DNA from: a virus
Lineage: Duplodnaviria > Heunggongvirae > Uroviricota > Caudoviricetes
Strand: one strand, 5' to 3'
DNA: 18,232 nucleotides
IMG/VR virus record: IMGVR_UViG_2778261667_000006
Location: 1 to 18,232 of that record
In this document: piece by piece, positions 1 to 10,950 of the stretch
How positions within the stretch are numbered: position 1 is the first letter of the stretch
Layout: the number at the start of each line of letters is the position of its first letter
Position numbers and translations under genes: made by a program
The notes under the pieces: generated by a model
Databases searched by the model: none
Seen by the model: only the letters and a program-made list of their open reading frames with translations
Told to the model about the DNA's origin: nothing

Positions 1-1688
1 TCAATAAGCAGGCCATCACGTTCAAATCGTGGCTCGTCAATGGCAGCCTCTGTCAGCACACCAGATTTGTTAATATAGGTTGCCGTTGACGCCCTGGTAA
101 ATGAAACAACCTTTTCAGATGGCAATGTAATAACATCGTCACCAACTGTGATGCTCTTATATCCCGGTGCGAACCCGGTAATCATATCCAGCGAATCGTT
201 AAACGGTATCCACACATCAGGCAGCGGTTGAATAATCTTCCGGGCATCCTCCAGTGGCAATGCTTCGACATCCGAGGCTGTTAAAGTAATATCTGACGAA
301 CCGTCAAATGAAACGTTGTTAATCTTCCGTGCTGTTTTTAATTTCGTTGCGGTGTCGGCATTCCCCGTTAGTGAACCGGTGATCCCGCCGTTGAAAGTCT
401 GGCGTTCACTCCATGTGTTAGCCGTGCTCAACAGGGGGATCTTTTCACCGCTTGTGCCGAGTTCTCTTAAACCAAGGTATTGGATGACAGCAAGGACACT
501 TGTTTTAGCCAGAATATCGCGACCGACTGACGTCAAATCAGTCTGGGCAACAGTATCTTTACCGGTAAAGTACGGCAATTTGTTTGCACCGGTCGCAAGG
601 CCAGCAAGCGCGGTTAAAGTTGCATCCAGAGGCTGTTTGCCTGCCAGCGCATTTGTCATTGTTGTCGCAAAGTTCGGATCATTGCCCAGTGCTGCTGCAA
701 GCTCATTCAGGGTATCAAGAGCTTCTGGTGATGAGCCGACCAATGCGGATATGGCCGCTCTTACATAAGCGGTCGTGGCAATCTGCGTATTGTTCGTACC
801 CTGTTCCGCAGTCGGCGCAGTAGGGATCCCAGTGAGGGCAGGACTTGCCAAAGGTGCTTTAAGAGCCAGTGCTTTATTAATAGTTTCACTGAACTTCGGA
901 TCGTTGTTGATGGCGGACGCAATTTCTTTCAGTGTATCCAGAGCCCCTGGTGCGCCATTGATCAGCGCATTTATAGCCGCATAGACAAAGGCCGCATTTG
1001 CGATCTGTGTGTTGTTTGTACCAGGTTCTGGTGTAGGCGAAGTTGGCGTCCCTGTCAGATTCGGGCTGTCGATCGGGGCTTTTGTATCAACCAAATCATG
1101 GAGGGTTTTGACAGCCAGGGGAGTAGCCGCTTTTCTCTCTTCTGTACTGCTTATTTCATTAGAGAACTCAACGCCAACAGCACGATTGACGCGGTATTTA
1201 AGCACAATCATTTCTTTAGTCACGGCTGTAGCACCGCTAGGCACGACAATTCGACATAATTCAATTTGATTCTGCCCGATAGTGTTGTCCGTGCGAACGT
1301 ATATTCTGGCAGCACTGACAGAAGATGTGATATCTACCTGGGTCGTTTTTACACCATGTTCAAAATTAGCTTCCAGCACAATAATGTTCGTAGCCCCGGC
1401 CTTTACCGGAACAATCACATCTTCTATTTGTTGAACGGATATCTGAACATTATTTACATCTACTGAAGCAGCCCCCTTACCATCTGAATTTTCAGAAGTA
1501 ATACGGACACTCAATCCTGTGCCGGGAACTGGTTCAAATCCGCAGTAAAAACCTGGCAAAACAATATTTTTTAACTTCCTGTTAATAGCCGAACTACTAT
1601 ACAGTTCGAAATATTGAACATCAGCAAGCAGTGGCTGTGTGACGCCTGAAGATAGTGTCATTATGTTTTTCGTTTTATCAGCCCCCAT
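1..1688 (-). CDS. Side tail fibre protein, N-terminal 562 codons; the C-terminal (receptor-binding) part lies beyond the window start
   Basis: Minus-strand frame opens at ATG 1688-1686 (GAGGGG 5 nt upstream; in-frame TGA 4 codons upstream) and runs without a stop to position 3. It is absent from the ORF track because it has no stop inside the window. The translation carries two tandem copies of a KAPxxSPxLTGxPTxPT...GTNNTQIA...NDPxF motif, then LAGKQP...NKLPYFTG and GNADTATKLKTARKINNVSFDGSSDITLT. I recognise these as the conserved shaft segment shared by lambda Stf, P2 H, P1 S and Mu S type fibres. Confidence 0.85.
   Translation of the reverse strand, partial: MGADKTKNIMTLSSGVTQPLLADVQYFELYSSSAINRKLKNIVLPGFYCGFEPVPGTGLSVRITSENSDGKGAASVDVNNVQISVQQIEDVIVPVKAGATNIIVLEANFEHGVKTTQVDITSSVSAARIYVRTDNTIGQNQIELCRIVVPSGATAVTKEMIVLKYRVNRAVGVEFSNEISSTEERKAATPLAVKTLHDLVDTKAPIDSPNLTGTPTSPTPEPGTNNTQIANAAFVYAAINALINGAPGALDTLKEIASAINNDPKFSETINKALALKAPLASPALTGIPTAPTAEQGTNNTQIATTAYVRAAISALVGSSPEALDTLNELAAALGNDPNFATTMTNALAGKQPLDATLTALAGLATGANKLPYFTGKDTVAQTDLTSVGRDILAKTSVLAVIQYLGLRELGTSGEKIPLLSTANTWSERQTFNGGITGSLTGNADTATKLKTARKINNVSFDGSSDITLTASDVEALPLEDARKIIQPLPDVWIPFNDSLDMITGFAPGYKSITVGDDVITLPSEKVVSFTRASTATYINKSGVLTEAAIDEPRFERDGLLI
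639..1082 (-). repeat. Intragenic tandem duplication in the tail fibre gene (two diverged units of about 222 bp, codons 203-276 and 277-350)
   Basis: The two units encode KAPIDSPNLTGTPTSPTPEPGTNNTQIANAAFVYAAINALINGAPGALDTLKEIASAINNDPKFSETINKALAL and KAPLASPALTGIPTAPTAEQGTNNTQIATTAYVRAAISALVGSSPEALDTLNELAAALGNDPNFATTMTNALAG. The duplication is also visible as similar spurious plus-strand ORFs at 775-984 and 1009-1269. Confidence 0.6.
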
Positions 1689-1690
1689 AA

Positions 1691-2137
1691 TCACCCCTCA
1701 ACTTGCTCGATTGTCATGAGAATGCTGTAACGCTTACCTTTGTAGAGAGTATCCTGTTGGGTACAAAGCACGCCAAAAGCCTGATCTTCAGCATCAACAA
1801 GCACAAGCGTGTTAAAGTCATAGGGCGTGTTATCCGGCATTCTTTCTTGAGGGAAGGCAGCATTGATAGTGATAATTCCATCCACACTGGACAATATCAG
1901 ATCGGAAGCAGCAAACTGTTGAGCGTCACTCAATTTAAAATCGAGTGGAATATCAGCAATATTCCAGCCACCCGCACCATTTGCAGTTACCAGGCCAGAT
2001 TTGCACCAATACGCCTTAGAGATAACGAAACGCGCACCTTTACCGATCGCTGATTCGGCACGGCGTGAATAGTAGTAGGAAAGCAATTGTGCCTTATACA
2101 GGCTATTGCCATCTCTTGCCTTTAAATTTTCTGCCAT
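1691..2137 (-). CDS. Hypothetical 148-aa protein immediately upstream of the tail fibre gene; tail-fibre or baseplate associated by position only
   Basis: ORF-track frame; ATG preceded by GAAGGGG; its TGA stop lies 2 nt before the fibre ATG, suggesting translational coupling. No motif recognised. Confidence 0.5.
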   Translation of the reverse strand: MAENLKARDGNSLYKAQLLSYYYSRRAESAIGKGARFVISKAYWCKSGLVTANGAGGWNIADIPLDFKLSDAQQFAASDLILSSVDGIITINAAFPQERMPDNTPYDFNTLVLVDAEDQAFGVLCTQQDTLYKGKRYSILMTIEQVEG

Positions 2138-2206
2138 ACGAACATAGCCCCTTCATAAGCAATGAACCAAAGGAGAGTATGCTCAGTTTGTGATTTCCGT
2201 TGTTCT

Positions 2207-2225
2207 TCCCCCTGGTGCAGGGGGA
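2207..2225 (-). other. Intercistronic GC-rich stem-loop (7-bp stem CCCCCTG/CAGGGGG, 3-nt loop), no U-tract
   Basis: Perfect inverted repeat read directly from the sequence, between the 281-aa gene stop (2234) and the 148-aa gene start (2137). Confidence 0.4.
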
Positions 2226-2233
2226 GAGTGTGA

Positions 2234-3079
2234 TCAAACAGGCGGAAGGTGGTAATCTAAAGGCCAGGCATCTAGTGGGATCACATCAAGATGTAATTGC
2301 TTTTCTGCCGTTCTGTTCGGTATGGCGTTAAGAGAAATATTATCTACCTGGCAGGAAGCATCACTACTGTATAGCATATCAGCCATACTCTCAGTAACAT
2401 AAACACCTTCAATTACCGAAACATCCGTAGACAAGCAATTTAGTATTTCTGCCACTTCAGGGAATACAGCACTAAGCCGAAACGAGACGCCATCAAAAAC
2501 AATATGCAATGGCAACAAAGGGGCTATTACTGTTTCGAAGTCAGATAACAATTTCTGCACAGCGGATTCTTTATCCTGCTCTCCATATGATCGATATAGC
2601 TTGTTCTGATCAACAACGACAAGCCCCCTTGATGTCAGGAAGAACTCACCGAATTGAGCCTGTGCCGTAGGTATTTCTATTTCGGTCGCAAAATATGAAC
2701 CATAGGGGTGTTTTTCTATATTTACAGGAGCATACAGCGGTTCCCAACTAACAGGAATACAACCGAATTCACGCCAGAATGTCTGCTCAATAGGCAAGAT
2801 AGTGCCTTTAAAGTGCACTTCATCTAAACGTTGCGCCAGAAGCATTGGTCTGCGGGTCTTATCTTTTTCGGTGATAACGAAAAAACGCCCGTATTCGGCA
2901 ATGCGTGCATCCATATCCTCACTGTCCATCGTGAAGAAAGATTTCCTGTTACTTATCCGTGTTAAGATTGGTTCTACAGCTTCATTCCAGACATCCTGTA
3001 AAGCGTCTATAAAGGCACCCCAGAGACGAGAATCCTGTTTTACCTTAGTTAACCGTTCCTTAAGCCAATTATCTTTCAT
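2234..3079 (-). CDS. Baseplate protein, 281 aa; position equivalent to P2 gpI / Mu gp48-type baseplate component
   Basis: ORF-track frame; ATG with GAGG 6 nt upstream; sits between a J-like gene and the fibre gene. Function inferred from gene order, not from a recognised motif. Confidence 0.5.
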   Translation of the reverse strand: MKDNWLKERLTKVKQDSRLWGAFIDALQDVWNEAVEPILTRISNRKSFFTMDSEDMDARIAEYGRFFVITEKDKTRRPMLLAQRLDEVHFKGTILPIEQTFWREFGCIPVSWEPLYAPVNIEKHPYGSYFATEIEIPTAQAQFGEFFLTSRGLVVVDQNKLYRSYGEQDKESAVQKLLSDFETVIAPLLPLHIVFDGVSFRLSAVFPEVAEILNCLSTDVSVIEGVYVTESMADMLYSSDASCQVDNISLNAIPNRTAEKQLHLDVIPLDAWPLDYHLPPV

Positions 3080-3089
3080 GTCAACCTCA

Positions 3090-4520
3090 TTACGGATAAG
3101 AAATGCTGAACGTAGAAGATTTTACGTCAAGATAAATAAAGTCATTAAAGTAAACAGCATCCTTCATATTTTGTATTTTTATGTCATAAGAGAGAAACAT
3201 ATCCAGTGATTCTATTACTCGCCAAATATCTTTAACTTTTACCTGTGCATAACATTGCTGGGAATCATCATCACTCTGTAGTAATAAACTGAATGATGAC
3301 GAATCACGACCAAAATTATCTTCCAACGCTGCTTTAATAGCATTTTGAGCGTCGTCGATCAGAACATTTTTACGTGCAATACCTGTAAAATTTATAGTAA
3401 ATGGCTGTTCATTTGTATCTACATACTCGAACCGCTTGTTCAACTCATTTGGAACATTCTCTAGAGCTTTCAGTATTTCTGATTTTAGCTGAGCTTGGCT
3501 TACACCCGGCTTATGTCCGCAAAAGAAAATCTTGTTGATGTTTCGAACGTCAAACCCAGTTATTTTTTCTTGTAACGCTTCGCCCCAAACGTTCAACCAT
3601 GAAGTTCCATGTACAACATTCTGAATGAATTGGCGATAATCACCGCCCCATACCACTTGTTCATCGTATGCAACATAATACTGAGCACGATTTCGAGTTT
3701 CTTCTGTAGTTTCCATGCCACTACCACCGGTAATGATCGAATCAGTTTTAAACTCTAGTGACTCCACATATTGAGCGATATTTCCAACCGGTTCTAACTT
3801 TTGTCCTTCAGCCAAAGTATAGTCGCCAAGACTAGCCATAACATCAATTCGAACCTGACAACCTGCTGGCGGCATCATACCCATAGAGCCATCACCAAAT
3901 TTAACTCCAAGTTGTTCTGTAGGTTTATATGCCAATGAATAGTGCTTACTCTTGTCTCTGGACATTCTAAATAATGGGTTATATGTCCATTTTTCTTCTA
4001 CGCCATCTGTAATAACATAAACGTCTAGGCTAGAGACTTCTTTTGTTAACTCTCTGGAAAGCAACAACGTCAGAAATAAAGTTTCCTTCTCAATATCAAA
4101 TGTAACGCTAACAGCTTCGTGCTGTTTGATTTCTACGCCAGAAACAGTTCCTCCAGCAGGAACCACAACACTATTAATAATTGCCAAAGGTGTTTGGTCA
4201 TTAGCAAGCAATTCAGCCCCGGCTGGTAACGTAATATCCCGATCAGTTTTATTGGTTATAGACGTTGTTCCGTATGAAGCACTAACAAATCGCCCTACGT
4301 AGCTACGGTCTTCAGCAACAGCTAAAATACTTGAGCGGCGCGTAGCCGTTGAAATAAGTCCCTCAGTGAGTCCACGGCTTGCAAATGTACGGGCAATATA
4401 AATAACCTGTGATCCGAATATAGCGTGCATCTGCACAAACTGACTATTTACAAATCGTGACCACCATGTGTTTTCATTTAACTTGGCGTTAAATTTGTCC
4501 AGTAATTCTGTAATAGTCAC
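3090..4520 (-). CDS. Baseplate J-like protein, 476 aa
   Basis: ORF-track frame with a GTG start at 4520-4518 overlapping the upstream gene's TGA stop (GTGA, coupled). Size and position directly after a gpW/gp25-like gene match the conserved W-J-I-fibre order of contractile-tail baseplate modules. Confidence 0.5.
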   Translation of the reverse strand: MTITELLDKFNAKLNENTWWSRFVNSQFVQMHAIFGSQVIYIARTFASRGLTEGLISTATRRSSILAVAEDRSYVGRFVSASYGTTSITNKTDRDITLPAGAELLANDQTPLAIINSVVVPAGGTVSGVEIKQHEAVSVTFDIEKETLFLTLLLSRELTKEVSSLDVYVITDGVEEKWTYNPLFRMSRDKSKHYSLAYKPTEQLGVKFGDGSMGMMPPAGCQVRIDVMASLGDYTLAEGQKLEPVGNIAQYVESLEFKTDSIITGGSGMETTEETRNRAQYYVAYDEQVVWGGDYRQFIQNVVHGTSWLNVWGEALQEKITGFDVRNINKIFFCGHKPGVSQAQLKSEILKALENVPNELNKRFEYVDTNEQPFTINFTGIARKNVLIDDAQNAIKAALEDNFGRDSSSFSLLLQSDDDSQQCYAQVKVKDIWRVIESLDMFLSYDIKIQNMKDAVYFNDFIYLDVKSSTFSISYP

Positions 4521-4891
4521 GCGCCCACCCCACTTGATTTCTGCATAACAATATCCATGCTCCCACCTTTCGCATAAAAACTAATTAATAAAGAATCTTC
4601 AGAAATTGATGTGCAACGAATCCCCTGCACATCCAAACCTGGCAAGTCTTGTCGTAGTTTTTTCATCATTCTCCCTTCAATAGCCACTTCAACTATGTGT
4701 GAAGTTTCAGAGCCGAATGGTTCATGCTTAAATTCTTCCATTGGATTCCCCCAAGAAGGTAAGCCATAAACACTCCCTTCAGGGGTTCGTAGCCACTCGT
4801 CAAGGCGGGCCATCCACGCTGCGGTACTTCCTTCTGCAATAATGACACCGCTCTCATTCGTTTGAAGTCTTGCGTCTATTTCGTAAAGCAT
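4517..4891 (-). CDS. Baseplate wedge protein, gpW/gp25-like, 124 aa
   Basis: ORF-track frame; ATG with GAGGA upstream. The segment LDEWLRTPEGSVYGLPSWG resembles the ILRTPxGSR core motif I recall from P2 gpW / T4 gp25 family proteins; size and position fit. Confidence 0.55.
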   Translation of the reverse strand: MLYEIDARLQTNESGVIIAEGSTAAWMARLDEWLRTPEGSVYGLPSWGNPMEEFKHEPFGSETSHIVEVAIEGRMMKKLRQDLPGLDVQGIRCTSISEDSLLISFYAKGGSMDIVMQKSSGVGA

Positions 4892-4896
4892 CGGTA

Positions 4897-7800
4897 TTAA
4901 TCCTCAAGTAGAGCATCCAGCGACGGGTCATTAATAGTTGTGCTCGCACGTGGCCGCGGCTGCGGCTGCGATGTTTTGACAACCTTATCTGGATCTCCTT
5001 TTGTATCATTTTTGTTCACATTAAGAAGGTCTTTCAGAATAGAACAGATGTTATCCAGCGCCTTCAACATAGCAGGATCGTTATTTGCGGTGTCAGTAGT
5101 TAATGGTTGTCTTATTCCGCTTCGAGCAAGATCGGTTACTGTGGGAAGCTGTGGCGGCATAGCAAGAAAAGGTTCCTGCACGGCTGACGCAGAGCCAAAT
5201 ATGGTATTATTTGCCTCAGTTGATATTCCCCTGATGCTATCAGCGGTTTGCTGAATACCATTATTTAGCCAACCACCAGCACTTCTTGTAAGTGGGCTAA
5301 TCGCCCTGGCGATTGTTGAATTCTGCCCTGTAGCCTGATAGACAAAATCATTCAATATGCCAGTGCCATCGATGCCACCAACAAGTTGTGAAATGTTGTC
5401 ACCAATTGCAGGTAATACAGCCGAACCAATGCGCTTCATACCTGTTAATGACGAATCAAACAAAGAGCCAAGAAATCCCTTATCTTCGCCGTCTATTATC
5501 TTATTGCCATTGTTATAGACAGGAATTCCTTTTGAGTTTACTGGTGTTTTTTTATTATCTGTTGACTGTGAATCGCCAGAGAGAAGATCGACCGAAGATG
5601 TATCGCGTTCAGGTGCCGATCTTTTTTGTATAGCCTCTCTGATATCAGCCACCTGGGGAGCTTTTTTGAATCCAAAAGATTTACCGGTCAAGTTGGATAT
5701 CTTTTCGGTCAGAGCTTGATCCATTCCCTTCGCCTTTTCAGAGAGCGAAGATATAGAACCAAATGAAGTAGCTGACGCAAAATCCTTAACCAAGTCCAGA
5801 CTTGTACCAGCAAGACTGGTAGCCGCACCACCAAATAAATTACTTACTCCACTGATACCGCTTTCATTTATGGCGATTAACCGCTCAAGCAAACTCGATG
5901 GCGAGGCAGTATTAACATCAGAGTTCTCTGGATTAACCAGTTGTGGTTGGTTACCTGTTTTTTGTGTTTTTTTTGCTGCTTGGGCATGTTGAGCAACCTC
6001 AATTGGCTTAGGTGTTGCTGTTGGAACTGCATTCAATACAGGTTGTGCCGGAGATGTGCCATCAGCATATTTCACCTTGCGACCAACACTATATTGCGAA
6101 TCACGAGCAATTAGCTGACCGCCATTCTCTTTCTGAATTTTATTAAGCCGCGCCAATGTTTCATCGGAGAAACGCCCTTCCCAACGACCAGTATTTGCGT
6201 TGAATACCCCAAGGGCATTCTTTATGAACTCATTGTTAACCGCCGGGTTTCCGCCTTCTTTAGTCGCTATTGCGCGAACTAATTGCGTCATAACCTCTGG
6301 GTTGCCTACGTCTATTTTTTCATTAGGCGAGACACCAAGATATTTGCTGACGTTATCAATATATTGATTAGTATTGTTCTCCTTTGGGGGTGCCCATTTT
6401 GAAATAATACTGGATACCGTTTGTAACTTCTGATATCCGGCAGCGGCACTGGTGCCGTTATAATAGCTGGATACTTGGTTTGCCAGCGCCCTGATTCCTT
6501 CTTCAGGCGTGTTGAATCGGGCAAAACGCTGTTCACCTTTTGCATTTGGCGCTTCCAGCGTCGCCCCTTCCTGATTGGCAAAAACAAGATTGCCGAGATT
6601 ATTATTTCGGTAATTTCGGTTTTTAGCGTTGCTGCCGCCAATATTCAGATCAGCTGCAATGGTGTTGCTGGCAGGGGCATTAAATTCAGCCGGGGAAGTA
6701 TACCCGTGCTCACCAACACCATCTTCACCATCACGCCCGCCTTGTAGCTGCTCACCTAAAGAATGAATCGCATCAACGGTCTTCTTGGTGCCATCCTCAA
6801 CCGCTTTTTTTACTTGCTGCGTGTTTTCATCAGTGGATAAAAATTTATCCTTAAGGCTACCAAAAGCAGATTTAGTGATATCTACTGCGCCATTAACACC
6901 ACGCGCAATATCTCCGGTATCAAAATTCTGAAGTTTTTCACCTGCCCTTTCGAAGCCTAACGCAGAAATTCCTTTGCCTATTAGATTGGTTGCACCAGAA
7001 ACTAAGCCTCCCATATCAAGAACATTAGCGGTTGCGTAAGCGGTTTTTTGCTGTGTGGATACAACATCATCATCACTTAAGCCAAAGGCCGCTTTTTGCG
7101 CATCTGTATCTGTGTAACCATCTATAGCGTCATATCCAGCCATTGCCAACGACCCGATGATGGGGATCGCTCTTGCTGCTGTTGATGCTGCCGATTTCAC
7201 ACCTATTTTGGCAGCACTTTTGAGGGCTACAGATTCAGTTTTTTTCTTTGCAATGGTTTCACCGGTTTTAACTGCGGCATCTTCGGTAACGACACCGGCA
7301 GACTTAACGGCTTTTGCAGTATTTTTTGTTTCTTTAGCAGCCCCCTTAGAAGCGTCACTAGCCGTGCTTATATCTTTGGCTTTGCTAACATTAGTTTTAA
7401 CAGTCTTTGCAGTTCCTGCGCCAACGCCAGCCGCAGCGGTTCCGGCAGCGGCTTTTTCTCCAACGGAAAGGGCTTTTTTCCCCAGATTGCGTCCTTTCCT
7501 TTTCGGTTTGTGTCGTTTATTTCTGCTGGTCTGATCGCCAATATTGATTTTATTTCTTCTACCTGGCCGATTTCTCCAGAGATCACTTAAGCCGAACTTA
7601 TTCCCAGAAGACACCGACTTGCGAAGCTTAGCTACTTCGTCAGAGACATTTTCCAAACCATCAATTATTTTGTTGTCATTGGCCTGAAGAATTTTTGTTT
7701 GCTCTTCTACTGCTTGTGTAGATCTTGTCTCAACTGCATTATTAAATGCAGTTGCAGAGGTTGTTTTTTGTGCATTGGATGCAGCCGGATAAGTGATCGC

Positions 7801-8637
7801 TGGCGATTTCGCTTCGTGATCTGGTGGATTATCTACCCACTCCTTAAGAGATTTTGTTTTCCCTGTAATCTCTTTTGTTATGTCATACATGCCGCGAGCC
7901 GCCATCCATAACGGGCCACCAGCACCGACACCAGCAGCATTTGTTATGGCTTCTTCACCTGCAGACTGATGGCCATCCATCCCCATAATGGAACCTAGTT
8001 TTCGGAGGAAGCCTGCTTGTAATTTTGCGTCGGCTTTACGCGCGTTCTGCAATTCTTTTTTTCTGGCTATATCCTCATTGCTTTTCTGGGATACAAAGCG
8101 TCCATTACTATCCCGAATCGGGCCTTTTGGGCTTTGGGGGGGTTGAAGTTCCAGAGAGGCAGAATTAGCTGCTACCGGTATAGAATCTTTCGACCTTTTG
8201 ATGGACTGGCGTGATCGCACAGAATGAACGCTTTCTGGTGTGTTAGTTGCAACGATAGAGCGATCTATGCCCTGGTCTATTAGTGCCCTCTCCTTTTTCG
8301 CAGGAAGACGTTTTTTATATGGATTAGTTTGGGCATCTCTAACGACATCAGGAGCGTCTTGCTCGTAGTTTTTACGCCTACGGGATAGCCTGTTACTAAC
8401 TTTACCTTGCTGTCCTCCCTGTTGAGTTATAGCGACACCACCAGAAAGAATGGCGTCTTTTATCTCAGCAAGTGCCTTAAGTTCGTTTGCGCTCGCCCCC
8501 TGAATGGCGTCAATTATTGCGATTCGGTCTTTATTTTCTTTCAAAATAACCTCTCTTTTACCAGCGGCGCTCAACGTTTCCCGGCTTGAGCTTTGTATTT
8601 TTCTTCCAGGGCTTTTGACATATGGAGTGCTCGCCAT
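4897..8637 (-). CDS. Large tail protein, 1246 aa; tape-measure-like / P1 Sit-like candidate
   Basis: Single 3.7-kb frame. Basic N-terminus, Ala/Gly-rich hydrophobic glycine-zipper-like segments (AAAGVGAGGPLWMAARG, AAGTAAAGVGAGTAK, IPIIGSLAMAGYDAI), a central globular-looking block (NLGNLVFANQEG...FARFNTPEEGIRALANQVSSYY...ISKWAPP) and a low-complexity C-terminus. Lies directly upstream of the baseplate genes. Weak SD at the ATG. Confidence 0.6.
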   Translation of the reverse strand: MASTPYVKSPGRKIQSSSRETLSAAGKREVILKENKDRIAIIDAIQGASANELKALAEIKDAILSGGVAITQQGGQQGKVSNRLSRRRKNYEQDAPDVVRDAQTNPYKKRLPAKKERALIDQGIDRSIVATNTPESVHSVRSRQSIKRSKDSIPVAANSASLELQPPQSPKGPIRDSNGRFVSQKSNEDIARKKELQNARKADAKLQAGFLRKLGSIMGMDGHQSAGEEAITNAAGVGAGGPLWMAARGMYDITKEITGKTKSLKEWVDNPPDHEAKSPAITYPAASNAQKTTSATAFNNAVETRSTQAVEEQTKILQANDNKIIDGLENVSDEVAKLRKSVSSGNKFGLSDLWRNRPGRRNKINIGDQTSRNKRHKPKRKGRNLGKKALSVGEKAAAGTAAAGVGAGTAKTVKTNVSKAKDISTASDASKGAAKETKNTAKAVKSAGVVTEDAAVKTGETIAKKKTESVALKSAAKIGVKSAASTAARAIPIIGSLAMAGYDAIDGYTDTDAQKAAFGLSDDDVVSTQQKTAYATANVLDMGGLVSGATNLIGKGISALGFERAGEKLQNFDTGDIARGVNGAVDITKSAFGSLKDKFLSTDENTQQVKKAVEDGTKKTVDAIHSLGEQLQGGRDGEDGVGEHGYTSPAEFNAPASNTIAADLNIGGSNAKNRNYRNNNLGNLVFANQEGATLEAPNAKGEQRFARFNTPEEGIRALANQVSSYYNGTSAAAGYQKLQTVSSIISKWAPPKENNTNQYIDNVSKYLGVSPNEKIDVGNPEVMTQLVRAIATKEGGNPAVNNEFIKNALGVFNANTGRWEGRFSDETLARLNKIQKENGGQLIARDSQYSVGRKVKYADGTSPAQPVLNAVPTATPKPIEVAQHAQAAKKTQKTGNQPQLVNPENSDVNTASPSSLLERLIAINESGISGVSNLFGGAATSLAGTSLDLVKDFASATSFGSISSLSEKAKGMDQALTEKISNLTGKSFGFKKAPQVADIREAIQKRSAPERDTSSVDLLSGDSQSTDNKKTPVNSKGIPVYNNGNKIIDGEDKGFLGSLFDSSLTGMKRIGSAVLPAIGDNISQLVGGIDGTGILNDFVYQATGQNSTIARAISPLTRSAGGWLNNGIQQTADSIRGISTEANNTIFGSASAVQEPFLAMPPQLPTVTDLARSGIRQPLTTDTANNDPAMLKALDNICSILKDLLNVNKNDTKGDPDKVVKTSQPQPRPRASTTINDPSLDALLED

Positions 8638-9599: not shown

Positions 9600-9608
9600 T
9601 TATCCACA
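9600..9608 (+). promoter_or_regulatory. DnaA box, perfect consensus TTATCCACA, at the outer edge of the origin
   Basis: Exact 9-mer read from the sequence; position relative to the GATC cluster and iterons matches P1-type oriR architecture. Confidence 0.6.
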
Positions 9609-9612
9609 GGAT

Positions 9613-9662
9613 AGATCCAATATATAGATCCTGATTAGATCCATATAGTACCAAACAGATCC
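9613..9662. promoter_or_regulatory. Cluster of four GATC (Dam) sites in AGATCC(A) heptamer-like repeats within an AT-rich stretch; origin-opening / methylation-control region
   Basis: GATC at 9614-9617, 9627-9630, 9638-9641 and 9658-9661, each within AGATCC, lying between the DnaA box and the iterons. Confidence 0.6.
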
Positions 9663-9708
9663 CGTAGCTCTTCAGGCCGTGTCACATAAGGCTTTAACCA
9701 CATTTCAG

Positions 9709-9812
9709 ATGTGTGCTGGAGGGAAAACGATGTGTGCTGACGGGAAATATATGTGTGCTGGAGGGTTTTACATGTGTGCTGGCGGGATGTAGGATGTGTG
9801 CTGACGGGAAAA
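9709..9812 (+). repeat. incC-type iteron array: five direct 19-bp RepA-binding repeats (ATGTGTGCTGGAGGGAAAA and variants) at about 21-bp spacing
   Basis: Repeats start at 9709, 9730, 9751, 9772 and 9794. The sequence matches the P1 plasmid iteron consensus as I remember it; five repeats upstream of repA is the P1 incC arrangement. Confidence 0.85.
9766..9794 (+). promoter_or_regulatory. Putative sigma70 promoter of repA embedded in the iterons (-35 TTTACA, 17-bp spacer, -10 TAGGAT); expected to be autorepressed by RepA
   Basis: Hexamers read from the sequence; they overlap iterons 3-5. Autorepression through promoter-iteron overlap is established for P1 repA; its application here is inference. 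Confidence 0.35.
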
Positions 9813-9820
9813 AAAGTCGG

Positions 9821-9829
9821 ATATCCACT
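9821..9829 (+). promoter_or_regulatory. Possible second, imperfect DnaA box (ATATCCACT, 7 of 9) between the last iteron and repA
   Basis: Sequence match only. Confidence 0.25.
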
Positions 9830-9867
9830 GTCGTAAACTTTATTCACAACATGACGGTAACTTATTG

Positions 9868-10728
9868 ATGGATAAGTCATTTATCTCTGATATTCTTTAT
9901 GCTGACATTGAAAGCAAGGCAAAAGAATTAACAGTTAATTCGAACAATACTGTTCAACCTGTCGCGCTTATGCGGCTTGGTGTTTTCGTCCCTAAACCAA
10001 CTAAAAAACAGGGTGAAAACAACGAGATAGATGCATCATCTGTTTTTTCTAAACTGGAAATCGCTCAAGCAGAAGGCTACGACAATATCAAGATTACTGG
10101 TCCTCGTTTGGACATGGATACTGATTTCAAAGTCTGGATTGGGGTAATCTACTCATTTAGCAAATATGGCTTATCATCGAACACTATTCGTCTTTCTTTT
10201 CAAGAGTTTGCAAAGGCGTGCGGATTTCCATCTAAGCGACTTGATGGGAAATTAAGAAACACGATCCACGATTCTTTAGGTCGGTTACGTAACAAAGGCA
10301 TCTCATTCAAAAGAGGTAAAAGTGCTCGTGGAAGCTATAATACTGGCTTGCTTAAAACGGGATATTTTGACTTTGAAACAGATGTCGTTGAACTGGAGGC
10401 TGATTCCAAGTTATGGGAAATCTTCCAGCTAGACTATCGGGTGCTTCTACAGCAACACGCACTTCGTGCTTTACCTAAAAAAGAGGCAGCCCAGGCCATA
10501 TATACCTTTATAGAAAGTCTCCCGGCACGGCCAATACCTATTTCATTTGCCAGAATACGTGAAAGATTAGCCTTGATGTCATCGGTAAGTGAGCAAAACA
10601 GAACGATAAAAAAAGCTATAGACCAGTTAAAAACAATAGGTTATCTCGATTGCACTATTGAAAAGCAAGGACGAGAAAACTTTATTATCGTTCACTCTCG
10701 GAATCCGAAACTTAAACCAACAGATTAA
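9868..10728 (+). CDS. repA: Plasmid replication initiator RepA (P1/IncY iteron-binding type), 286 aa
   Basis: Frame flanked upstream by five and downstream by seven copies of the same 19-bp iteron. The ORF track starts at TTG 9865; I prefer the adjacent ATG at 9868. The only plus-strand gene in the window. Confidence 0.88.
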   Translation: MDKSFISDILYADIESKAKELTVNSNNTVQPVALMRLGVFVPKPTKKQGENNEIDASSVFSKLEIAQAEGYDNIKITGPRLDMDTDFKVWIGVIYSFSKYGLSSNTIRLSFQEFAKACGFPSKRLDGKLRNTIHDSLGRLRNKGISFKRGKSARGSYNTGLLKTGYFDFETDVVELEADSKLWEIFQLDYRVLLQQHALRALPKKEAAQAIYTFIESLPARPIPISFARIRERLALMSSVSEQNRTIKKAIDQLKTIGYLDCTIEKQGRENFIIVHSRNPKLKPTD

Positions 10729-10950
10729 ATGTGTGCTGAAGGGATAGATTCATACCTGGATGTGTGGTGGAGGGAATTTCGGGGGATTGCTTACTTCAGA
10801 TGTGTGCTGGTGGGATAAATGACGCTCTTTACATGCAAAATTCCCCTCCAGCACACATGTTTCCATTATCATTCCCTCTACAACACATCTTGAGCAATGG
10901 GGTTGCCCGGCAGCACACATTTAACGTAACCCCTTCCCTCCAGCACACAT
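10729..10950. repeat. incA-type iteron array downstream of repA: three direct and four inverted copies of the 19-bp iteron (copy-number control locus)
   Basis: Direct copies at 10729-10747, 10760-10778 and 10800-10818; inverted copies (TTCCCTCCAGCACACAT type) at 10841-10858, 10871-10888, 10903-10920 and 10933-10950, spaced about 30 bp apart. Confidence 0.8.

What the first reader, a model, noticed from the sequence alone, without database searches (positions are those of the whole stretch)
1..1688. Tail fibre gene with an internal tandem duplication, cut by the window at the conserved junction where fibre C-termini are usually exchanged
The fibre has two diverged copies of a 74-residue collar-like unit, then the conserved LAGKQP...NKLPYFTG and GNADTATKLKTARKINNVSFDGSSDITLT segments. 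These conserved segments are where lambda, P2, P1 and Mu type fibres recombine, and in P1 and Mu they precede the invertible host-range segment. The receptor-binding end, and any invertase or alternative C-terminal cassettes, would lie just beyond position 1.
Basis: partly seen in the sequence, partly recalled or inferred. Interest (0 to 1): 0.45.

Follow-up and report, generated by a model that had tools for sequence, protein, structure and literature searches.

The report
P1/D6-type tail fibre gene S
This is the well-known tail-fibre gene S of a P1/D6-like plasmid prophage, with its already described 74-residue tandem repeat and its DNA-inversion crossover site lying inside the window, so the finding is real but ordinary.

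Summary
An open reading frame on the minus strand runs from the ATG at 1688 off the window at position 1 (562 codons). It has two in-register 74-residue units (61% aa and 62% nt identity) followed by the quoted conserved segments.

The window is an entire 18,232-bp draft contig of a phage D6-like, P1-family plasmid prophage. The gene is S, downstream of homologues of genes 16 and R.

- **The duplication is old and known.** It corresponds to "repeated elements b1/b2" (222 bp each) annotated in P1 gene S. Relatives carry two or three copies.
- **The window is not cut at the exchange junction.** A 26-bp site with 25/26 bases matching P1 cixR lies at 462-487, with the crossover at 474/475. So 475-1688 is the constant part (Sc) and 1-474 is already inside the invertible segment. 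The GNADTATKL… motif is therefore inside the segment, not before it.
- **The visible variable part is mosaic.** P1/D6 similarity ends at 319-331, and 1-233 belongs to a module shared with siphophage lateral tail fibres.
- **The flank cannot be seen.** The closest relatives carry cin and a roughly 6.8-kb invertible segment, but two D6-like relatives have lost most of cin.

This is a new member of a known kind and of low interest.

The parts
1..1688 (-). Tail-fibre gene S, 5' 1688 nt (562 codons). ATG at 1688, 2 nt after the stop codon of R. It runs off the contig end.
   Evidence: Open frame. 90% nt identity to D6 orf35 'long tail fiber protein, similar to P1 gene S' over window 331-2400. phrog_454 and phrog_2631 tail fiber protein, E 1e-267 and 4e-194.
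475..1688 (-). Sc, the constant part of S (aa 1-404).
   Evidence: Lies on the R-proximal side of the crossover point 474/475, placed by homology with the P1 annotation 'crossover site within cixR'.
462..487 (.). cixR-type 26-bp crossover site, TTCTCTTAAACC AA GGTATTGGATGA. It is read in S as VIQYLGLRE, and the predicted crossover is between 474 and 475.
   Evidence: 25/26 bases match P1 and D6 cixR, and the annotated 20-bp core at 465-484 matches 20/20. It is the only match in the window within 3 mismatches, with 0 in 200 shuffles. The region is invariant across eight P1/D6-like loci.
1..474 (-). First 158 codons of Sv, the variable part of S, which would lie inside the invertible C segment.
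   Evidence: Lies beyond the crossover. In relatives L003 and L004 this stretch is present in both inverted arms.
861..1082 (-). 74-residue repeat unit 1 (aa 203-276), equivalent to P1 'repeated element b1'.
   Evidence: P1 b1 at L002 7540-7762 maps to about window 858-1080.
639..860 (-). 74-residue repeat unit 2 (aa 277-350), equivalent to P1 'repeated element b2'.
   Evidence: P1 b2 at L002 7318-7539 maps to about window 636-857.
1074..1169 (-). Phage tail fibre repeat (Pfam PF03406), immediately before the 74-residue units.
   Evidence: E 2.9e-7, 30.4 bits against a cut-off of 22, at aa 174-205.
561..647 (-). Conserved LAGKQP...NKLPYFTG segment at the end of Sc.
   Evidence: Shared with lambda Stf and P2-type fibres.
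279..365 (-). GNADTATKLKTARKINNVSFDGSSDITLT motif, inside Sv. The similarity to P1, D6 and other relatives ends within or at the edge of it.
   Evidence: P1 similarity ends at 319, D6 at 331, L005 and L009 at 298, CP042620 at 288. 80% aa identity to T-even gp37 over this motif.
1..233 (-). Start of a non-P1 distal module. In relatives this module ends in a concanavalin-A-like/LamG domain.
   Evidence: 82-83% nt identity to lateral tail-fibre genes of siphophages VogelGryff, HannyBb, Tritos and 2G7b. aa 478-562 match phrog_1419 positions 351-435 of 793. L003 S ends in Laminin_G_3, a sub-threshold hit at 26.0 bits against a cut-off of 27.6.
1691..2137 (-). Gene R homologue (tail fibre protein R), upstream of S in the same operon.
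   Evidence: PF26881 Phage_P1_tail_fiber_R is precomputed for this exact protein. D6 orf36 is annotated 'similar to P1 gene R'.
2234..3079 (-). Gene 16 homologue (baseplate or tail tube protein).
   Evidence: PF26903 Phage_P1_Gp16. D6 orf37.

Best explanation
Window 1-1688 is the 5' 1.69 kb of gene S, the long tail-fibre gene of a phage D6-like, P1-family plasmid prophage. It is transcribed on the minus strand after genes 16 and R.

Residues 1-404 form the constant shaft, Sc. This includes two copies of an ancient 74-residue shaft repeat, the b1/b2 elements of P1. Relatives carry two or three copies of this unit.

The codons for IQYLGLRE double as a cixR crossover site (462-487, crossover at 474/475). 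In P1 and D6 a Cin serine invertase, encoded beyond the segment, recombines cixR with an inverted cixL. That inversion flips the C segment and joins Sc to one of two alternative C-terminal parts, Sv or Sv', each with its own assembly chaperone, which switches host range.

The last 474 nt of the window are therefore already inside that segment. They are mosaic:
- P1/D6-like down to about 320-330.
- Then a module shared with siphophage side fibres. In the closest relatives this module continues for roughly 360 more residues to a LamG-like end, followed by a 92-residue gene, a separate distal fibre gene and a chaperone.

Shown here: gene identity, the repeats, the cix site and the mosaic structure. 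Inferred: that this genome still has cixL, cin and a second cassette, which I put at about 0.7. Also inferred: that the contig ends where it does because the last ~80 nt are repeated elsewhere in the genome.
For: - **Source and family.** The window equals contig PTSF01000032.1 of GCA_002965845.1 (100% identity). It is 92% identical to phage D6 over 91% of its length, with the P1 gene order 23-22-21...tub-pmgB-sit-pmgA-bplA-16-R-S.
- **The gene.** S is 90% identical to D6 S and 85% identical to P1 S over window 319-1097.
- **The repeats.** P1's annotated b1 and b2 elements are 222 bp each and map onto the two units.
- **The cix site.** It matches P1 cixR at 25/26 bases, is unique in the window (0 of 200 shuffles), and is invariant in eight relatives.
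- **Flanks in relatives.** D6, P1, the E. marmotae plasmid L003, the E. coli plasmid L004 and the Salmonella plasmid L031 all have cin plus inverted Sv'/U' cassettes on that side.
- **Assembly forks at the inverted repeat.** Draft contigs of other R-identical relatives stop 17-25 nt past the crossover (window-equivalent 449-457), as expected for a fork at an inverted repeat.
- **The contig end.** Window 1-70 is 69/70 identical to the Sv' arm of L003 but 51/70 to its Sv arm, and the pattern is reversed for 71-210. An independent assembly of the same strain stops at window 54.
- **Literature.** The D6-like 'tail fiber gene inversion region' is described, and is the most divergent region between D6 and a D6-like Salmonella plasmid (PMC6799933).
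Against: - Nothing beyond position 1 is available, so cixL, cin, Sv' and the chaperones are unseen in this genome.
- Both assemblies of this strain read straight through the cix site without forking. A perfect cix-proximal inverted repeat, as in P1 (636 nt, 98%), is therefore absent. This fits diverged arms as in D6 (198 nt at 93% and 366 nt at 86%), but it also fits no second arm at all.
- Two D6-like relatives have lost most of cin and keep a single S-U pair. L009 has an identical R protein, 94.5% identical DNA over window 298-2400 and an intact cixR sequence, so the site alone does not prove a working switch. L023 is the second.
- The window's site has one substitution, a synonymous T-to-C in S sense, at the second position from its outer end.
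Confidence: 0.85

Rival explanations
1. The fibre is fixed. The element has lost cin and the second cassette, so the cixR sequence is only a relic kept because it encodes conserved residues (IQYLGLRE), and S has a single C-terminus.
For: - L009 has an identical R protein, 94.5% identical DNA over window 298-2400 and an intact cixR sequence, yet only a 108-bp cin remnant between U and lydA.
- L023 has a 100-residue resolvase remnant next to the chaperone.
- Truncated cin genes and altered C segments are reported in P1-like plasmids (PMC6906374).
- Neither assembly of this strain forks at the cix site.
Against: - Most complete D6-like and P1-like relatives examined keep cin and both arms. Eight of the ten D6-like contigs have an intact 186-residue resolvase gene next to lydA.
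- Both assemblies of this strain end inside Sv, at window 1 and 54. There the sequence switches to near-identity with the other (Sv') arm of L003, which suggests a second copy in the genome.
- D6 itself has diverged arms that would not fork an assembly at cix.
Confidence: 0.25
2. The contig ends inside Sv not because of a second inverted cassette but because window 1-84 is repeated in a side-tail-fibre gene of a chromosomal prophage in the same genome.
For: Window 1-230 matches many E. coli chromosomal prophage fibre genes at 80-86% identity. There were 2289 chromosomal places for the 1-480 query. It also matches siphophage lateral fibre genes.
Against: The chromosomal matches listed are only about 85% identical, too low to fork a k-mer graph. 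The near-perfect match (69/70) is to the Sv' arm of a related plasmid. This rival does not conflict with the main identification, only with the use of the contig end as evidence for a second arm.
Confidence: 0.2
3. The 74-residue duplication is a recent, locus-specific tandem duplication that marks an unstable or newly evolving fibre.
For: Copy number differs between relatives: two in the window, D6, P1 and L009, and three in L003 and L031.
Against: The two copies are only 62% identical in DNA, with third codon positions near random (24/74). Each copy is orthologous to the b1 or b2 element of P1.
Confidence: 0.03

Closest known systems
Phage D6 gene S (orf35, long tail fiber protein) with cixR, cin and the S'/U'/U cassettes (GenBank MF356679)
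   Same: 90% nt identity over window 331-2400. It has the same 16-R-S operon, two 74-residue units at the same residue positions (208 and 282), and the same cixR sequence at the same codons. The whole window is 92% identical to D6.
   Different: Similarity stops at window 331, 144 nt inside the invertible segment, and the rest of Sv is a different module. The plasmid replication gene elsewhere in the window is P1 repA-like rather than the D6 type.
Phage P1 gene S, Cin/cix C-segment inversion system, and 'repeated elements b1/b2' (NC_005856, M81956)
   Same: 85% nt identity over window 319-1097. The b1/b2 elements (222 bp each) match the two units. cixR matches at 25/26 bases at the Sc/Sv boundary, and the gene order is the same.
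   Different: The N-terminal ~200 residues of S are D6-type, with no megablast similarity to P1 beyond window 1097. P1's a0/a1 repeats were not found by similarity. P1's inverted arms are 636 nt at 98%, whereas this strain cannot have perfect arms because its assemblies read through the cix site.
Plasmid prophages pRHBSTW-00605_3 (Escherichia marmotae, NZ_CP056699) and p24AR0070B (E. coli, NZ_CP195366)
   Same: These are the closest matches to window 1-480 (93.8% and 92.9%). They have the same Sv module on a P1/D6-like backbone, with cin adjacent.
   Different: - The N-terminal part of S is much more diverged in the E. marmotae plasmid (68% nt).
- The E. marmotae plasmid has three 74-residue units, not two.
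- Their segment is about 6.8 kb with four genes per arm.
- Their cixL sites carry a substitution next to the crossover dinucleotide.
- The window is a mosaic of their two arms.
Din family of fibre-switching invertases (Gin of Mu, Pin of e14, Min of p15B, Hin of Salmonella)
   Same: The crossover-site design is the same: 12-bp inverted half-sites around a 2-bp core, placed within a fibre gene at the constant/variable boundary. This comparison rests on established knowledge. The P1 record notes Mu similarity within the segment.
   Different: No invertase gene is in the window, so its subfamily cannot be assigned. The site is of the cix type by sequence.

Membership tests
P1/D6-type tail-fibre gene S | Sequence homology to S of P1 or D6 across the constant part. 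| tested here: met
   90% nt identity to D6 S over window 331-1688. 85% to P1 S over 319-1097. phrog_454 E 1e-267.
P1/D6-type tail-fibre gene S | Position in the tail-fibre operon directly downstream of R and gene 16, next to the baseplate genes bplA-pmgA-sit. | tested here: met
   R at 1691-2137, gene 16 at 2234-3079, bplA at 3090-4520, pmgA at 4517-4891, sit at 4897-8637. All are on the minus strand and colinear with D6.
P1/D6-type tail-fibre gene S | Tandem 222-bp (74-residue) repeated elements b1 and b2 in Sc. | tested here: met
   Units at 1082-861 and 860-639. 45/74 aa identical against a shuffle maximum of 18. They map onto P1 b1 and b2.
Cin/cix invertible C-segment system (Din-family serine invertase switch) | cixR crossover site inside S at the Sc/Sv boundary. 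| tested here: met
   Window 462-487 matches P1 and D6 cixR at 25/26. It is unique in the window, with 0 of 200 shuffles. It is invariant in relatives.
Cin/cix invertible C-segment system (Din-family serine invertase switch) | Second site (cixL) in inverted orientation. | not testable with these tools
   It would lie beyond position 1. The window is the whole contig, and no second cix-like site is in the window. cixL is present in D6, P1 and L031 and is altered in L003 and L004.
Cin/cix invertible C-segment system (Din-family serine invertase switch) | Serine invertase gene (cin: Resolvase plus HTH_7 domains) adjacent to cixL. | not testable with these tools
   Not in the window. It is present in D6, P1, L003, L004, L031 and L021-L029. 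It is largely deleted in L009 and L023.
Cin/cix invertible C-segment system (Din-family serine invertase switch) | Two alternative Sv/U cassettes in opposite orientation. | not testable with these tools
   Only the first 158 codons of one Sv are in the window. There is indirect support from the contig end and from the mosaic match to the Sv' arm of L003.
Cin/cix invertible C-segment system (Din-family serine invertase switch) | Actual inversion, with both orientations present in a population. | not testable with these tools
   This needs reads or an experiment. Neither assembly of this strain forks at cix, which is uninformative if the arms are diverged as in D6.
   Pfam reports only Phage_fiber_2 at aa 174-205. 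The one PDB sequence match is to a 'tail collar fibers gp4' chain, over the ALDTLNELAAALG-type stretch.

The most novel reading that the evidence does not exclude
Beyond position 1 this element may carry the enlarged, roughly 6.8-kb form of the invertible segment seen in its two closest Sv relatives. In that form each arm holds four things: a LamG-ended S terminus, a 92-residue gene, a separately encoded distal fibre (Gp34_trimer/gp37-like) and a chaperone. One Cin inversion would then exchange two receptor-binding modules at once. An inner 98%-identical 0.85-kb inverted repeat could additionally let the distal pair flip by homologous recombination, giving up to four fibre states. I found no description of this arrangement in the papers I could search, but it is visible in public complete plasmids, and it is unproven for this genome.
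Probability: 0.4. Interest if true: 0.3.

Novelty: new member of a known kind. Interest (0 to 1): 0.1.

Why it matters
It matters little beyond annotation. The region should be labelled as gene S (Sc, cixR and the start of Sv) of a D6-like plasmid prophage. The contig end should be read as an assembly break inside the fibre-switch region, not as a biological boundary.

The modest value is comparative:
- The Sv part is a new mosaic, at most 94% identical to anything in the collections searched.
- Fibre exchange points fall inside the invertible segment, at the GNADTATKL motif.
- The shaft repeat varies between two and three copies.
- cin-deleted 'locked' derivatives recur among D6-like elements.

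All of this is relevant to predicting the host range of phage-plasmids that carry resistance genes.

Tried and rejected
- **Tandem Repeats Finder on 1-1700** found nothing because the units are only 62% identical in DNA. The repeat was shown by an in-register comparison instead.
- **Recovering the true flank of this strain, via R.** A look-up of contigs encoding the identical R protein showed that the window is the whole contig and that the Logan assembly of the same strain stops at window 54.
- **Via species-representative genomes.** A scan with the S fragment did not contain this assembly. It returned only distant Escherichia and Buttiauxella fibre genes.
- **Via LydB.** A protein search with LydB of relative L009, followed by a contig look-up of the cluster representative, returned D6-like contigs from other samples only.
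- **The D6 genome paper** (Gilcrease and Casjens 2018) is not held by DOI or PMC id, so the D6 GenBank annotation was used instead.
- **A recent local duplication** was considered and rejected.
- **A true Pfam 'Collar' domain** was considered and rejected.
- **The absence of an assembly fork at cix as proof that no second arm exists** was considered and rejected, because D6's own arms are only 86-93% identical.
- **The late promoter upstream of R.** I compared the 16-R intergenic region with P1's LPs promoter. The window resembles D6 there, not P1, and I did not pursue it.
Full report
**What is there**

On the minus strand an open reading frame starts at the ATG at 1688, two bases after the stop codon of the preceding gene. 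It runs without a stop to position 1, giving 562 codons.

The window is not a fragment of a longer record. A look-up of the identical upstream protein shows that the window equals the complete 18,232-bp contig PTSF01000032.1 of assembly GCA_002965845.1 (100% identity). The 'cut' is therefore an assembly break. An independent Logan assembly of run SRR3988014, presumably the same strain, is 100% identical and stops at window 54.

**What element it belongs to**

The whole window is 92% identical to phage D6 over 91% of its length. Its gene order is that of P1 and D6: major capsid, sheath, gene 21, pmgG, bplB, pmgC, tube, a replication gene, pmgB, sit, pmgA, bplA, 16, R, S.

The reading frame is gene S, the long tail fibre:
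- 90% nt identity to D6 orf35 over window 331-2400.
- 85% nt identity to P1 S over window 319-1097.
- phrog_454 tail fiber protein at E 1e-267.

More than 400 plasmid records, mostly E. coli with some Salmonella and Shigella, carry similar sequence.

**The duplication**

Residues 203-276 and 277-350 (window 1082-861 and 860-639) are two in-register 74-residue units.
- They share 45/74 residues. Shuffles gave a mean of 7.3 and a maximum of 18 in 20,000.
- They share 137/222 nucleotides.
- First and second codon positions are conserved (55/74 and 58/74). Third positions are near random (24/74).

This is an old duplication held by selection on the protein. The P1 GenBank record annotates exactly these as 'repeated element b1' and 'repeated element b2', 222 bp each, and they map onto the window units to within 3 nt.

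Copy number varies among relatives. The window, D6, P1 and L009 have two copies. The E. marmotae plasmid L003 and the Salmonella plasmid L031 have three, always spaced by exactly 74 residues.

Pfam sees only a Phage_fiber_2 repeat just upstream, at aa 174-205, and no Collar domain. The sole solved-structure match is a 'tail collar fibers gp4' chain over the ALDTLNELAAALG stretch.

**The junction**

It is about 474 nt inside the window.

- Window 462-487 reads TTCTCTTAAACCAAGGTATTGGATGA. P1 and D6 cixR read TTCTCTTAAACCAAGGTATTGGATAA.
- The annotated 20-bp core, at 465-484, is identical.
- The site is the only match in the window within three mismatches, and none occurred in 200 shuffles.
- An alignment of eight P1/D6-like loci shows this stretch as invariant, while flanking third positions vary.
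- The single difference in the window is a synonymous change at the second position from the outer end of the site. P1's functional cixL also deviates from cixR there: its outer half-site begins CA rather than TT.

By homology with the P1 annotation the crossover falls between 474 and 475, in codon 405, within IQYLGLRE. This gives three consequences:
- 475-1688 is Sc.
- 1-474 is already Sv, inside the invertible C segment.
- LAGKQP…NKLPYFTG (aa 348-376) precedes the site, but GNADTATKLKTARKINNVSFDGSSDITLT (aa 442-470) lies inside the segment.

**Mosaic structure of the visible Sv**

Similarity to different relatives ends at slightly different points: P1 at 319, D6 at 331, L005 and L009 at 298, and plasmid CP042620 at 288. 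All of these fall within or at the edge of the GNADTATKL motif. That motif is 80% identical to T-even gp37, and the preceding segment matches lambda Stf and P2-type H.

Here, though, the exchange point lies distal to the cix site.

Window 1-233 resembles lateral tail-fibre genes of 45-58-kb coliphages at 82-83%. It matches positions 351-435 of the 793-position phrog_1419 profile. S should therefore continue for roughly 360 more residues.

**What lies beyond position 1 in relatives**

The best matches to window 1-480 are an Escherichia marmotae plasmid (93.8%) and an E. coli plasmid (92.9%). Both have cin and an invertible region of about 6.8 kb. Each arm of that region contains:
- the end of S, with a sub-threshold Laminin_G_3 match;
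- a 92-residue gene (phrog_1361);
- a 330-339-residue distal fibre (Gp34_trimer, gp37_trimer, Gp53-like_C);
- a Caudo_TAP chaperone.

An inner inverted repeat of 845-879 bp at 98% spans the S 3' end, the 92-residue gene and the 5' part of the distal fibre gene.

D6, P1 and the Salmonella plasmid L031 have the classical arrangement of cin, cixL, Sv', U', U, Sv.

Not all relatives keep the switch:
- L009 is a metagenome scaffold with an identical R protein and an intact cixR sequence. It has a single S-U pair, and only 108 bp of cin remain before lydA.
- L023 has a 100-residue resolvase remnant next to its chaperone.

Published surveys report the D6-like 'tail fiber gene inversion region' as the most divergent part of D6-like plasmids (PMC6799933). 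They also report frequent cin truncation in P1-like plasmids (PMC6906374).

**Why the contig ends here**

Contigs of four other R-identical relatives end at window-equivalent 449-457. That is 17-25 nt past the crossover, the signature of a k-mer graph forking at a perfect inverted repeat.

This strain's two assemblies read through the site and stop at 1 and 54. Its arms therefore cannot be identical next to cix. D6's own arms are only 93% and 86% identical, against 98% in P1, so this does not exclude a second arm.

Compared with L003, window 71-210 follows the Sv arm (131/140, against 101/140 for Sv'). Window 1-70 follows the Sv' arm (69/70, against 51/70 for Sv). A repeat boundary near window 84 would explain both contig ends. 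I infer, but cannot show, that the final ~80 nt are present in a second copy, most simply the other arm.

**Mechanism**

The mechanism rests on established P1 biology and on the annotation. Cin binds cixL and cixR. With an enhancer located in cin, it inverts the segment, so that Sc is fused either to Sv, with U co-expressed, or to Sv', with U'. This changes receptor specificity.

For this window the following are shown: the gene, the Sc/Sv boundary, the site and the repeats. The existence and activity of the partner site and the invertase are inferred from relatives, with a probability of about 0.7. The alternative, a locked derivative like L009, is about 0.25.

**Verdict**

The fibre type, the switch context and the conserved exchange motifs are right. 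The position of the junction and the nature of the duplication are wrong, and the flank is untestable.

This is a new member of a known kind, a D6-like plasmid prophage with a new mosaic Sv, and of low interest.

Noticed in passing
window 9600-10950: A P1-type plasmid replicon sits between pmgB and the tail-tube gene. repA is at 9865-10728 (+), 72.7% nt identical to P1 repA. There are five GATGTGTGCTGGAGGGA iterons upstream (9704-9812), then three direct (10724-10818) and four inverted (10844-10950) iterons downstream. D6 has a different Rep3-family gene at the same position. Among R-identical relatives, L008 has the D6 type and L005-L007 and L010 have the window type. This looks like a replicon swap at a fixed site.
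   Followed up: partly
window 1 and 18232 (contig ends); L012: The window is a complete draft contig (PTSF01000032.1). A Logan assembly of run SRR3988014, presumably the same strain, is 100% identical and ends at window 54. So the 'cut' in S is an assembly break, with a likely repeat boundary near window 84.
   Followed up: partly
L009:3990-4484 and L023:2663-2965: Two D6-like relatives have lost most of cin and the second fibre cassette. L009 keeps a 108-bp cin remnant, and L023 a 100-residue resolvase remnant abutting the chaperone gene. Both are left with a single S-U pair, although L009 keeps an intact cixR sequence.
   Followed up: partly
L003:2695-2720 and L004:2628-2653: In the two plasmids closest to the window's Sv, cixL carries a substitution in the conserved ACC/GGT bases flanking the crossover dinucleotide: AAACGTTGGTTT in L003 and AAAGCTTGGTTT in L004, against AAACCTTGGTTT in P1 and D6. 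This might slow or block inversion there.
   Followed up: no
L003:2700-9485 and L004:2633-9484: These plasmids carry an enlarged invertible region of about 6.8 kb. Each arm holds a LamG-ended S terminus, a 92-residue gene, a separate distal fibre gene and a chaperone. An inner 845-879-bp inverted repeat at 98% identity could allow a second, homology-driven inversion of the distal pair.
   Followed up: partly
window 639-1082; L003 and L031 S genes: The copy number of the 74-residue shaft unit varies among relatives: two in the window, D6, P1 and L009, and three in L003 and L031. About half of the listed plasmid hits are roughly 220 nt longer across this region, consistent with a third unit.
   Followed up: yes
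window 4897-8637 (sit homologue): The sit homologue (annotated in D6 as a putative tail injection transglycosylase) varies in length among otherwise near-identical relatives: 1215, 1228, 1229 and 1246 residues.
   Followed up: no
window 316-768 (+): A 150-codon antisense ORF lies inside S, and an equivalent ORF is at the same place in L003 (9316-9768). It is probably a by-product of the Ala/Gly/Thr-rich repeat coding sequence rather than a gene.
   Followed up: no
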